Assembly: GCF_000298275.1 (NCBI RefSeq)
Contig: NW_006921853.1
Coordinates: forward strand, 3,431,147 to 3,468,046
DNA length: 36,900 bases
Direction of reading: 5' to 3'
Origin: Orycteropus afer
Taxonomy: Eukaryota
The notes under the pieces are model-generated. The model was not told the origin of the DNA. It ran no database searches and was given only the letters and a program-made list of their open reading frames with translations. Below are positions 17,551-35,114 of this stretch, one piece after another. Numbering within the stretch: position 1 is the first letter of the stretch; the number at the start of each line of letters is the position of its first letter. The translations under genes were made by a program, and so were the position numbers.

Positions 17551-18143
17551 TGGTTGTGGAAGAGGGTGGAAGGAGGCACTCCTCCCTCCATGCTTCCAAA
17601 CAGCCCAGAACAGAAGCCCAGAGAGCTACTCCAGTTCCTAAAGTACCTAAGCAGTTTCCTCCTCTCCAATCTGAGAGGCGTGGCAGATGTGTGCTATGAC
17701 TGGCAGGTGATGCCAAAGGAGGCCTCCAAATGTTGGGGGGTTTGAGGCAGGGATAGATGACTGGCAGCAAGAGGGTTAGACCTCCAAGAGGATTTCCTAG
17801 CCAGGCTAGGTAGCAGGCGGAATTCATAGTGAGAAGAAACATTAGTCGTTCAGGAACCATCCCAGAGGGGCTGGCACGTAGGCCCTGTCCTCCCTGTGGC
17901 ATTTTTCCCCCACCTGAGGTCCAGGAAAGCGGATTACCTAACCAGAGGACAGGTCTGGCTTGGCGGGTAAGACTCTGGAGTTTTATTTCGGGTTAGTGTT
18001 CTCCCTGCCTCAGCTTCCTCTCCACTTTACAAACAAGAGTAGTCTCTAGTAATTGTCTCAAGATTTCAGGTGTACTTTCAATAACTAAGCTCCTTTTCAC
18101 CGTAAAGAAACAGAAAAACATTTGGGTGGCCAGAAATGTCCGT

Positions 18144-18149
18144 TTTATT
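18144..18149 (-). terminator. MVP: AATAAA polyadenylation signal for MVP.
   Basis: Plus-strand 'tttatt' is AATAAA on the gene strand, 16 nt downstream of the stop. This is consistent with a very short MVP 3' UTR. Confidence 0.6.
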
Positions 18150-18165
18150 TCAGTGCAGTACAGAG

Positions 18166-18384
18166 CTAAGGCACGATGTGGGTGCTCCCAAAAGCTTGAG
18201 GAGCAGGAGGGCATTGGGAAAGCAGGGCTTCTTGCGGGCTGGGCCCACCAGCCACCTTCCTGACTGGGGCCTGAACCTCAGACCCTGCCCCTAGCAGACC
18301 TAAGGCCGTGTTGAAGAGATTGATGGGAGTGGAGCCATCAGTGATGAGGGTTGATTTCAGGCCCAGACTCTGGAGCAGTTTTAC
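18166..18384 (-). CDS. MVP: Major vault protein terminal coding exon encoding [72 protein letters not shown], with the TAG stop at 18166-18168.
   Basis: Lies within minus ORF 18166..18528. Acceptor is ctccctccag|GTAAAACTG. The diagnostic MVP C-terminus '[25 protein letters not shown](F/L)GLLG' is present. Confidence 0.9.
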
Positions 18385-18957
18385 CTGGAGGGAGAGAGGA
18401 GGGTGAGATGAGGTCCCTTCTCTCATCTCCGAGACTGGCTCTCTAGGGCAGGCCCCCATCCACTCCTCTGCGACTCTGCAGCTGTCTCCCACCCCATCCT
18501 CAGAAGATCGGTCAACAATAAATGACAAGCACGCGGGGAGCCTGGGGCGCTGCCTCTCCCACAGCTCAGCATTTCACCCCTTTGCTTGCTCTGTTGCAGC
18601 CAGAGGCCTTTCCGTTCCTGAAATGCACCAGGTTGTCCTCTCTGTGTCTTTCCACTTGGACTCTCTGGTGGAGAACTCTTCTCAACTCCACGTAGGGCTC
18701 AAGTACCCCATCTCAGAGTGACTTGACTTAAAGTGACTAATCTGAAGTGACAACCACACCCCTATCATCTCACCACCCTGCCTGACTTCCTTAGAGGCAC
18801 TTGTCATAGACTGACGCTGTCCCATCTGTTTGCTGTCTCCTTGTGAGCTCTAGCTCACTGCTGCATCTAGTACAGTGTCTGGCACATAAGGGTAGCACAG
18901 TATTTAAGTATGATACTGTGCTCAAATGTTAACAGGAATCAGAATATGTGATATAAA

Positions 18958-19148
18958 AACAAACGAACAAACAAAAAACCCACTGCCATTGAGTCTCCTC
19001 TGACTTATAGCAAGCCTATAGGACAGAGTAGAACTGTTCTATAGGGTTTCCAAAGCTGTAAATCTTTAAAGAAGCAGACTCTCTCGTCTTCCTCCCGTGG
19101 AGTAGCTGGTGAGTTCAAACCATTGACCTTTTGGTTGGCAGCTGAATC
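18958..19148 (-). mobile_element. tRNA-derived SINE of the second subfamily, inside the MVP intron between the last two exons.
   Basis: 'cccactgccattgagtc...tataggacagagtagaactg...tttccaaagctgtaaatctttaaagaagcagact...ggtgagttcaaaccattgacc...'. Homologous to 5652-5852. Confidence 0.7.
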
Positions 19149-19279
19149 TAGGGGCAATTCAATCACTGTTTGACCTCATCCCCTGGTTGACACTTTTCTA
19201 GATGTTGTGTTGTCTCCCTGGCTCTGTCTTCTTAGTTCTAGTCTGGTCTCAAGACAAACACCCATCCCCCAACTCTCAC

Positions 19280-19468
19280 CTGCATCTCAGGCCCAGCCAC
19301 AGCAAGGTCTCTGATGGTGCTGGGGCCCAGGGCCTCTGTCATCTGCTTGAACTTCTTTACCTCCACCTCACTCAGCTGTTGGGCCTTGCTCACCTCCAGT
19401 TCCAGCTGAGCCCGGGCATAGACTAATTCTAGCTCCCGTACTTTCTGTACCCGCTGGAGCTCAGCATC
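19280..19468 (-). CDS. MVP: Major vault protein penultimate exon encoding [63 protein letters not shown].
   Basis: Acceptor is tttcctttccag|GATGCT and donor is ATGCAG|gtgagag. 63 codons matching human '[63 protein letters not shown]'. Confidence 0.85.
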
Positions 19469-32813: not shown

Positions 32814-33095
32814 CCTTCCCGTCTTGACGTCCTGCACGTAGATGCCTTCATTCTCATCCAGAGGAATGGCCTGACGCTCTTCCACCACCTCCACCTTGGC
32901 CGACGGCACATACTCCAGCGGCCCTCGGATGAGCCAGCGGTCCCCGGCCTGGTGGGAGACCTGCTCTTCATCCTCCCCCTCCTGCACGGGCTGCAGGGCC
33001 CTCAGCAGCAGTCCCTGCTGCTCCGACAGCACGTACACATCCTGGATGCCTCGCTCCAGCCTCTCCCCTGGCTGCAGGAAGAAAGACTTCTCTCC
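32814..33095 (-). CDS. MVP: Major vault protein exon encoding [27 protein letters not shown]...YVQDVKTGR, 94 codons.
   Basis: Overlaps minus ORF 32595..33038. Acceptor is cccaccag|GGAGAG and the strong donor is AGG|gtaaga. Matches human MVP '[36 protein letters not shown]...VQDVKTGK'. Confidence 0.9.
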
Positions 33096-33419
33096 CTGGT
33101 GGGAGATGTGGGGTTGGAGCAGCTGCCACCCAGGGTTGCAGGTGCCTCTGATGGCACCGCCCCCAACCCCATCCAGCCTCAGGCTTGTGTTGAGGACTTG
33201 AGTCTAAAATAACCATTTATCCTCACCCCCACCCCATGTCACAACACAGTGAGAGTTATCTGGACTGTGAAGCTCTCTCAGGACCTGGATCCTTACAAGC
33301 TCAATGGTTAAGAATTCACCTATTGTTCCTCTTCAATTTCATGTTTTGTTTTCTTGGGATGGTATAGTCCAGGGGTTGGCAAACTCTTGACTTTTAGACC
33401 AATTCAGCCTGCTACCTGT

Positions 33420-34050
33420 TTTATTTTTAAAATGTATATCCTTTATTGAGATATAATTCACATACCGTAAAATTCATCTTTATATGTGTAGAAATCAGTG
33501 CTTTTAGTATATTCACAGAGTTATGCAAACACTACTACTATCCGATTTTAGAACATTTTCCATCACTCCCAAAAGAGACCCCAGTCCCCCTTAGCAATCA
33601 CTCCTTCTCCTTCTCCCTCTCCCTGGCCCCTGGCAACAACTAATTGACTTTCTGTCTATGGATTTGCCTGTTGTAGATACTTCATATAAATGGAATCATA
33701 CAACCTGTGGCCTTTTGTGTCTGGCTCGTCACTCCAGCATAATGTTTTCTGGGCTTATCCGTGTTGTAGCATGTATCAGTACTTTAGTCCTTTTAATAGC
33801 TGACATTTCATTGTATGGATATACCACATTTTGTTTATCCATTCATCAACTCATAGGCATTTGGGTTGTTTCTCCCTTTTCAGCCTCCTACTTTTATAGC
33901 ATCACAGCCACACCCATTCATTTACCTGTTGTCTATGGCTGTTTTCTAGCTGCAATGGCAGAGCTGAGTAGCTGCAACAGAAACTGTATGTCCCACAAAG
34001 CCTGAAATATCTACTACCTGGTCCTTTACAGAAAGTTTGCTGACCCCTGG
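33420..34050 (+). mobile_element. Old mammalian L1 3'-end fragment in the MVP intron.
   Basis: Classic L1M-type 3' end: 'tttattgagatataattcacataccgtaaaattcat...agtgcttttagtatattcacagagttatgcaa...ccctggcaacaactaattgactttctgtctatggatttgcctgttgtagatacttcatataaatggaatcatacaa...ccattcatcaactcataggcatttgggttgtttc', then '...acaaagcctgaaatatctactacctggtcctttacagaaagtttgctgacccctg'. Confidence 0.65.
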
Positions 34051-34485
34051 TGCTCTCATATACATAATTCAGAGATGGGAAGAGTTGTGTATAAAGAGAA
34101 AGGTGAACTGAGGAATTTCTGAAAATCAAGTGTCATGGAATCCCAAGAAGTACACGCATCCAGGGATGACATAGTTGCCAGAAGAGAGAGATGAGTAATG
34201 GAAGAGAAAGAGCTGCAGGGTGTCTGGGCATGGGCCAGGGCCAAGGCCAAGGAGGCTCTCCCAGGGGTGGCAGTAAAGAGGGACATTATTTCAGGCAAAC
34301 AGAACTATATATATGAAGGCCCAGAGGGAGCCATGGCAAGCTTGGTGTTTCTAGAATGTATGCCTGGGGTGGGAGGAGAGAAGGGGAGAGAGAAGAGAGT
34401 CTTATGTCATTCCAGGGCATTTATGCTCCTAGTGCAGCCTCTGAGTCAGGGGGAAGACTTTGAGCAGGGAGGAAGAAAAGGGTAC

Positions 34486-34722
34486 CTTGACAACACGCTT
34501 TTGCCCAAGTTGGTTCTTGCCATCTGGTCCGACTGGGTCGAGGATCACACAGTAGTTGCGGGGGCCCAGGGTGGTGATGGGCACGACCCCCAGCACCTCC
34601 TCATAGACATCTGGTACATGGGCCTCCGTGTCCTGCACTGTCACCAGCCATTCCTCCCCAGTGCGGCGGTTCACGCCCCTCAAGTCCCGGAAATTCTGCA
34701 GAGCCCGGAGGTGCAGGGCTGT
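34486..34722 (-). CDS. MVP: Major vault protein exon encoding [79 protein letters not shown].
   Basis: Lies within minus ORF 34429..34815. Acceptor is ctctacag|ACAGCC and donor is GTCAAG|gtaccc. 79 codons with very high identity to human MVP. Confidence 0.9.
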
Positions 34723-35019
34723 CTGTAGAGGAAGACGTTGGCGGTGTTTGGGTAAACCTACTTCCAGCTTGCTCAGTGGATTCTGAAATGAGCAGCAACT
34801 CCACCCAGTGGGCACTCAATGCTCCCAGGACTGACTGACGATTTCTAATAACTCAGGAGACTTTTTAGCCTTCTCAGATGAGTATTTCCTAGGTGATCTG
34901 ACCTTTAATTTTTTTTTTTAAGTGGCCCCAGTAATATGGCTTCTCTTCTACTCACCTTCTGCCACTCTGAGTGCTCCCTCCACTAGGGCCCCTTAACTCA
35001 CCATCCTCAGAGCACAAAC

Positions 35020-35114
35020 CTTTTCTGTGAGGATCACAGCATCCACCAAATCGAGAACCTCCTCAAACACTGCTGGTAGGTATGCACCCACCGAACGCAC
35101 CAGCCATTCTTCTC
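35020..35114 (-). CDS. MVP: Major vault protein exon, phase-1 start. It encodes (G)[31 protein letters not shown], matching human MVP residues ~205-236.
   Basis: Hand translation of the minus strand. Acceptor is ...ctcttggcccag|GA and donor is GAAAAG|gtttgt. Near-identity to human MVP '...[33 protein letters not shown]'. Confidence 0.8.

What the first reader, a model, noticed from the sequence alone, without database searches (positions are those of the whole stretch)
18120..35114. The 3' two-thirds of the major vault protein gene (MVP), on the minus strand, with ten exons
Ten exons translate to a protein collinear with human MVP from '...GEEWLVTTVGAYLP' through the cap-helix coiled coil to the C-terminal '...[30 protein letters not shown]...HIVP*'. 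Splice phases join exactly across all nine junctions. This is the only host gene I can support in the window. The 5' exons, about residues 1-200, are not in the window or not recognisable.
Basis: partly seen in the sequence, partly recalled or inferred. Interest (0 to 1): 0.5.

Follow-up and report, generated by a model that had tools for sequence, protein, structure and literature searches.

The report
Partial major vault protein gene (MVP)
This stretch holds the last ten exons of an ordinary, intact mammalian major vault protein gene on the minus strand, which is a correct annotation but not a discovery.

Summary
The finding is correct in every checkable detail, and it is ordinary. Ten minus-strand exons (35114-35020 down to 18384-18166) join into one uninterrupted 697-codon reading frame. 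That frame aligns without a gap to residues 194-890 of human MVP in solved vault structures. It carries the Pfam domains Vault, Vault_2, Vault_3, Vault_4 and MVP_shoulder.

An intronless MVP transcript contig from another mammal breaks into ten abutting blocks at the same boundaries. Projected onto the annotated Elephas MVP locus, the same boundaries rebuild residues 194-891 of NCBI's protein exactly. They are also AG/GT-flanked in manatee, armadillo and raccoon dog.

dN/dS against Elephas is 0.09, so the gene is under purifying selection and is not a pseudogene. The stop codon is TAG at 18168-18166 and an AATAAA lies at 18149-18144. The exons for residues 1-193 are not in the window; sequence above about 35800 is unmatched in Elephas and partly retroelement copies.

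Intron alignments place the source in Afrotheria, outside the elephant-plus-sirenian pair. Intron 8 (9215 bp) is swollen by retroelement fragments. Nothing here is novel.

The parts
35020..35114 (-). First MVP exon in the window (95 nt, starts in phase 1). It encodes residues 193(part)-225 in human numbering, the second half of repeat R4.
   Evidence: AG/GT flanks. tblastn to MVP 193-226. Transcript block 743-840. Elephas orthologue L001 18201-18295.
34486..34722 (-). MVP exon (237 nt), residues about 225-303.
32814..33095 (-). MVP exon (282 nt), residues about 304-397.
31517..31761 (-). MVP exon (245 nt), residues about 398-479.
31212..31409 (-). MVP exon (198 nt), residues about 480-545; the Pfam MVP_shoulder match (human residues 519-647) begins here.
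29922..30308 (-). MVP exon (387 nt), residues about 546-674; shoulder domain and start of the cap-helix.
28982..29098 (-). MVP exon (117 nt), residues about 675-713; cap-helix.
28684..28810 (-). MVP exon (127 nt), residues about 714-755; cap-helix.
19469..28683 (-). Intron 8, 9215 bp. It is enlarged by decayed retroelement fragments: RVT_1 pieces at 27174-27653(+) and 23553-23852(-), and a SINE dimer at 21232-21488.
   Evidence: The same intron is 3748 bp in Elephas, 4249 in Trichechus, 1658 in Dasypus and 759 in Nyctereutes. RVT_1 hits. Self-similarity to other copies in the window. Tandem repeat.
19280..19468 (-). MVP exon (189 nt), residues about 756-818; end of the cap-helix.
18166..18384 (-). 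Coding part of the last MVP exon (219 nt including the TAG stop at 18168-18166), residues about 819-890; cap-ring and variable C-terminal tail.
18120..18165 (-). Short 3'UTR with the polyadenylation signal AATAAA at 18149-18144.
   Evidence: sequence read directly. The cleavage site itself is inferred, not shown.

Best explanation
This is the 3' part of the single-copy, functional MVP gene of an afrotherian mammal, lying on the minus strand: ten exons, very probably exons 6-15 of 15. The encoded 697 residues run from the middle of repeat domain R4 through R5-R9, the SPFH-like shoulder, the cap-helix coiled coil and the cap-ring to the C-terminus. The full-length protein would assemble 39 copies per half into the 78-mer vault shell, as in human and rat. 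The exons for residues 1-193 lie beyond the high-coordinate end of the window. The upstream intron carries sequence absent at that position in Elephas, part of it retroelement copies. What is shown: the reading frame, the splice-site positions, orthology, purifying selection and the domain content. What is inferred: transcription and splicing in the source species, vault assembly, and the exact polyA site.
For: The frame is open for 697 codons across ten AG/GT-bounded exons, and each junction has a unique GT-AG placement. Pfam gives MVP_shoulder at 1e-49, Vault at 1e-33, Vault_3 at 4e-33, Vault_4 at 5e-18 and Vault_2 at 5e-11, all above the gathering scores. phmmer against the PDB matches human MVP (11dr_A) residues 194-890 end to end at 1426 bits with no gaps, and also matches rat MVP (4hl8/4v60). 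Among 5.8 billion proteins the top hits are all MVP, with the best at 92-93% identity: Ailuropoda, Loxodonta, Elephas, Trichechus and Dugong. The intronless transcript contig L002 aligns in ten abutting blocks whose genomic ends fall within 0-5 nt of the proposed boundaries. The boundaries projected onto Elephas L001 are all AG/GT, and their concatenated translation is an exact substring of XP_049759428.1. The same holds for the splice flanks in Trichechus, Dasypus and Nyctereutes. dN/dS is 0.093 against Elephas and 0.062 against L002. All 22 inter-subunit contact residues of positions 234-769 named in the human vault cryo-EM paper (PMC13347060) are the same residue as in the Pan reference sequence. 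Cap-helix identity is 96%. The locus is collinear with the Elephas MVP locus, introns and 3' flank included.
Against: There are no RNA data from the source species itself, so the junctions rest on sequence logic and cross-species evidence. The 5' quarter of the gene is not visible, so intactness of the whole gene cannot be shown. Collinearity with Elephas stops at about 35800, only 680 bp upstream of the first visible exon. The 456 bp at 35800-36256 match neither Elephas nor a recognised repeat.
Confidence: 0.96

Rival explanations
1. It is a 5'-truncated or rearranged MVP copy, either a partial duplicate or a gene broken at about 35.8 kb, rather than the intact gene.
For: No trace of the upstream exons lies in the 1786 bp above 35114. 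Smith-Waterman scores of the Elephas exons for residues 108-149 and 148-193 equal shuffle level. In Elephas that exon lies only about 1 kb upstream. Collinearity ends at about 35800.
Against: dN/dS of 0.09 over 697 codons, ten intact exons and conserved splice sites indicate a gene kept under selection. Part of the non-collinear sequence consists of dispersed-repeat copies: 36256-36677 is a copy of the RT-bearing element at 10056-10432, and 36678-36871 is a SINE with many copies. That is what an intronic insertion looks like. Both the introns and the 3' flank are orthologous to the single Elephas and Trichechus MVP loci.
Confidence: 0.03
2. It is a decaying unprocessed pseudogene whose frame happens still to be open.
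For: Only the absence of direct expression data.
Against: There is no stop or frameshift in 2091 coding nt. dS is 0.38 against dN of 0.036 versus Elephas. Exon nucleotide identity of 85-94% compares with about 79% in the introns. All splice sites are canonical.
Confidence: 0.01

Closest known systems
Human major vault protein (MVP/LRP; solved vault structures such as PDB 11dr, described in PMC13347060)
   Same: Gapless alignment of 697 residues to positions 194-890 at 91.7% identity. The domain order is the same: R4-R9, shoulder, cap-helix, cap-ring. All 22 checked inter-subunit contact residues are identical.
   Different: 58 substitutions, 21 of them in the last 76 residues, which form the variable tail. 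The stop comes three codons earlier (...THIVP* against ...NHVVPVLR*), as in the 890-residue MVPs of other mammals, including PDB 9z4w.
Elephas maximus MVP gene (XP_049759428.1; locus L001) and Trichechus manatus MVP (XP_004386701.1; locus L004)
   Same: Orthologous locus with the same ten exon boundaries. Introns align over 95-97% of their length at about 79% identity, and the 3' flank is collinear.
   Different: Protein identity is only 92.5-92.8%. There is a one-residue indel against Elephas. Intron 8 is 9.2 kb here against 3.7-4.2 kb. The intron upstream of the first visible exon carries sequence not found at the matching position in Elephas, partly retroelement copies.
Rat MVP (PDB 4V60/4HL8), the reference vault shell structure
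   Same: Aligns from residue 194 to the end of the 861-residue chain with an E-value of 0.
   Different: The rat protein lacks the longer C-terminal tail of this sequence (861 residues against about 890).

Membership tests
Major vault protein (MVP) | Tandem vault repeat domains (Pfam Vault, Vault_2, Vault_3, Vault_4) | tested here: met
   All four families score above their gathering scores, in the expected order along the protein. Only R4(part)-R9 can be seen; R1-R3 lie outside the window.
Major vault protein (MVP) | SPFH-like shoulder domain (Pfam MVP_shoulder) | tested here: met
   PF11978 at E=1.2e-49, covering profile positions 1-118 of 118, at residues 326-454 of the fragment.
Major vault protein (MVP) | Long C-terminal cap-helix followed by a cap-ring segment, collinear with solved vault structures | tested here: met
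   Gapless alignment to human MVP 647-814 at 96.4% identity and on to residue 890. Domain limits are taken from PMC13347060.
Major vault protein (MVP) | N-terminal repeats R1-R3, including the R1 waist contacts that join the two half-vaults | not testable with these tools
   The exons for residues 1-193 are not in the window.
Major vault protein (MVP) | Orthology: same exon-intron structure and the same locus as annotated MVP genes | tested here: met
   Exon boundaries rebuild the Elephas RefSeq protein exactly. Splice flanks are conserved in four species. Introns and flank are collinear with the Elephas and Trichechus MVP loci.
Major vault protein (MVP) | Expression and splicing in the source species; assembly into 78-mer vault particles | not testable with these tools
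   No RNA or protein data for the source species. This is inferred from purifying selection (dN/dS 0.09) and identical contact residues.

The most novel reading that the evidence does not exclude
The MVP gene of this unidentified afrotherian could be structurally altered at its 5' end. Collinearity with Elephas stops 680 bp upstream of the first visible exon, and no upstream exon is seen in the remaining 1.1 kb. That would leave a truncated or re-headed MVP lacking the R1-R3 waist repeats. Much more probably the intron simply carries inserted sequence not present in Elephas, partly retroelement copies, and the exon lies just beyond the window.
Probability: 0.03. Interest if true: 0.3.

Novelty: already known. 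Interest (0 to 1): 0.04.

Why it matters
It matters only as annotation. It anchors the window to the MVP locus of an afrotherian genome, in the region orthologous to human 16p11.2 (recalled from my own knowledge, not tested here). It gives exact exon coordinates, and it shows that the rest of the window is intronic or intergenic retroelement debris rather than further host genes. MVP is one of the most conserved and best-described eukaryotic proteins, and nothing in this copy departs from expectation.

Tried and rejected
1. I looked for the 5' exons in 35115-36900 with tblastn using human MVP, blastn with a full transcript, word-7 blastn against the Elephas locus, and Smith-Waterman of the two nearest Elephas exons with shuffle controls. 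Nothing was found.

2. I looked for the neighbours expected from human synteny, CDIPT and PAGR1, using probe sequences recalled from memory. No hit beat E=0.8. The Elephas locus also shows no called gene within 10 kb downstream of MVP.

3. A scan of the whole window against Rfam at gathering thresholds gave no hits.

4. I ran Pfam on the ten longest non-MVP, non-TE ORFs, including the three plus-strand ORFs antisense to MVP exons (32715-33209, 34195-34725, 34997-35518). Nothing was significant, so these are chance ORFs.

5. I tried to name the source species from protein identity. The best match is only 93.4%, so its own MVP is not in the protein collection. Only the clade could be inferred.

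6. Pfam on the retroelement ORFs recovered only RVT_1 pieces. The endonuclease-like and ORF1-like fragments gave no hit, so calling the elements RTE/BovB-like rests on my memory of those sequences and is not tested.

Full report
**Observation.**
The 2142-nt product reads in one frame, without a stop, from [13 protein letters not shown]... to ...GSTHIVP*. The other two frames are full of stops.

Each segment has AG directly upstream, and all but the last have GT directly downstream. I slid each junction by up to 6 nt in either direction. In every case the listed position is the only one that keeps both the same spliced sequence and a GT-AG intron. The junctions are therefore not one choice among several equivalent ones.

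The stop codon is TAG at 18168-18166. An AATAAA follows at 18149-18144.

**Identity.**
- The 697-residue translation hits Pfam MVP_shoulder (1e-49), Vault (1e-33), Vault_3, Vault_4 and Vault_2, all above their gathering scores.
- Against all PDB chains, the top matches are human MVP (11dr_A and 18 further entries, 1426 bits), an 890-residue MVP (9z4w) and rat MVP (4hl8/4v60). The alignment to human MVP runs from query residue 1 to 697 onto residues 194-890 with no gap.
- In the 5.8-billion-protein collection, all top hits are MVP.
- Identity over the 697 residues is 93.4% to Ailuropoda, 92.8% to Loxodonta, 92.7% to Elephas, 92.1-92.5% to the sirenians and 91.7% to Pan/human.
- No protein is closer, so the source species' own MVP is not in that collection.

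**Exon structure: three independent checks beyond GT-AG logic.**
1. *Cross-species transcript.* A 2840-nt Logan contig (L002, run SRR15616376) encodes an uninterrupted 885-residue MVP, so it is a transcript. It aligns to the window in ten blocks that abut in the cDNA. Their genomic ends lie within 0-5 nt of the proposed boundaries, the slack being chance extension into the introns. cDNA positions 1-742 find nothing in the window.
2. *Annotated Elephas gene.* I projected the window's exon ends onto the Elephas maximus MVP locus (L001). All ten boundaries there are AG/GT-flanked. Their concatenated translation is an exact substring, residues 194-891, of NCBI's XP_049759428.1.
3. *Other mammals.* The same projection gives AG/GT at every boundary in Trichechus, Dasypus and Nyctereutes.

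The tblastn layout in Elephas shows separate blocks for residues 1-46, 108-149 and 148-193, which implies at least three and probably four coding exons upstream of residue 193. The ten exons here would then be the last ten of about 14 coding exons. That fits my recollection that human MVP has 15 exons, which I did not verify here.

**Functional state.**
- Nei-Gojobori dN/dS is 0.093 against Elephas (dS 0.38, dN 0.036) and 0.062 against L002.
- Exons are 85-94% identical to Elephas at the nucleotide level, while the introns are about 79% identical.
- The cap-helix (residues 647-814; limits from PMC13347060) is 96% identical to human.
- The repeats plus shoulder are 93% identical, and the last 76 residues are 72% identical.
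- All 22 lateral-contact residues that paper names between positions 234 and 769 are unchanged.
- This is a gene under purifying selection that encodes a normal vault shell subunit.
- Vault assembly (39 copies per half-shell) is inferred from this conservation and is not shown.

**The missing 5' end.**
No exon for residues 1-193 lies in 35115-36900. In Elephas the next exon upstream is only about 1 kb away. In the window, however, collinearity with Elephas stops at about 35800.

Local alignment of the two nearest Elephas exons against 35115-36900 scores at shuffle level (22 against 19 +/- 2.4). A control exon scores 160.

Part of the non-collinear sequence is recognisable:
- 36256-36677 is a copy of the reverse-transcriptase-bearing element also present at 10056-10432, 27220-27604 and 23012-23383.
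- 36678-36871 is a SINE with several copies in the window and many in the Elephas locus.

The 456 bp at 35800-36256 remain unassigned. The simplest reading is a lineage-specific insertion in this intron that pushes the upstream exon past the window end. A real truncation cannot be excluded without more sequence, but it is unlikely given the selection signal.

**Surroundings.**
Intron 8 is 9215 bp here. It is 3748 bp in Elephas, 4249 in Trichechus, 1658 in Dasypus and 759 in Nyctereutes.

The extra sequence contains decayed reverse-transcriptase ORFs: Pfam RVT_1 at 27174-27653(+) and 23553-23852(-). It also holds a 126-bp x 2 SINE dimer at 21232-21488.

The 18 kb downstream of the gene (window 1-18119) is collinear in patches with about 6.5 kb of Elephas 3' flank. 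The rest is filled with further copies of the same retroelements, including an RT-bearing copy at about 8.2-11.0 kb.

No other host gene was detected. The ten longest remaining ORFs have no Pfam match, including three that are antisense to MVP exons. Probes for CDIPT and PAGR1 find nothing. Rfam finds nothing.

**Source lineage.**
Introns 1-7 and 9 of the window total 5638 bp. They align over 95% of their length at 78.8% identity to Elephas and over 97% at 79.4% to Trichechus. Against Dasypus they align over only 34% at 68.7%, and against Nyctereutes over only 27% at 70.6%. Elephas against Trichechus is 84.6%.

The source is therefore an afrotherian that lies outside the elephant-sirenian pair, or one that has evolved faster. 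A hyrax would fit, but other afrotherians are not excluded.

**Verdict.**
Both the observation and the interpretation are right. The feature is the well-known MVP gene, partial only because of where the window ends. Novelty is nil and interest is very low.

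Noticed in passing
window 19469-28683: Intron 8 of MVP is 9.2 kb here, against 0.8-4.2 kb in four other mammals. The extra sequence is decayed retroelement material: RVT_1 fragments at 27174-27653(+) and 23553-23852(-), an endonuclease-like ORF at 25249-25578(-), and an unclassified basic ORF at 22360-22803(-).
   Followed up: partly
window 8238-10967 (+): This is the most complete copy of a non-LTR retroelement in the window. It has an endonuclease-like ORF at 8238-8573, a 266-aa ORF at 8618-9415, and RVT_1 pieces at 9436-9690 and 10127-10438. It is broken by frameshifts. 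Partial copies lie at 567-1040, 13200-14087, 23012-24933, 27220-28144 and 36256-36677. It looks RTE/BovB-like from memory, but I did not test that.
   Followed up: partly
window 11689-11931: A 48-bp unit repeated 5.1 times at 95% match lies in the intergenic region downstream of MVP. It generates spurious 160-195-aa ORFs in several frames. There is no match of 150 bp or more in the Elephas flank and no Pfam hit.
   Followed up: partly
window 21232-21488; also 1592-1772, 2177-2346, 5451-5620, 23383-23575, 36678-36871: A tRNA-like SINE family of about 130-190 bp has many copies in the window and in the Elephas MVP locus. One is a tandem dimer with a 126-bp period. This fits an afrotherian SINE, but the family was not named with a tool.
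   Followed up: partly
window 35800-36256: These 456 bp lie between the end of collinearity with the Elephas intron and the recognisable retroelement copy. They match neither the Elephas locus nor the other repeats in the window. Their origin is undetermined.
   Followed up: partly
window 6028-7597 and 14653-15828: Two blocks in the 3' intergenic region share about 740 bp at 78-87% identity, in the same orientation. A third partial copy in reverse orientation lies at 9759-10059. They are probably copies of another interspersed repeat or a local duplication.
   Followed up: no
window 18166-18384 (C-terminal tail): The MVP stop codon comes three codons earlier than in human (...THIVP* against ...NHVVPVLR*). 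The same ending occurs in Elephas and in the 890-residue MVPs of ruminants and PDB 9z4w, so it is a common mammalian variant and not a truncation.
   Followed up: yes
whole window: Intron alignability places the source in Afrotheria: about 79% identity over 95-97% of intron length to Elephas and Trichechus, against about 70% over about 30% to armadillo and raccoon dog. It lies outside or is faster-evolving than the elephant-sirenian pair, whose introns are 84.6% identical to each other. Its own MVP protein is absent from the 5.8-billion-protein collection.
   Followed up: yes
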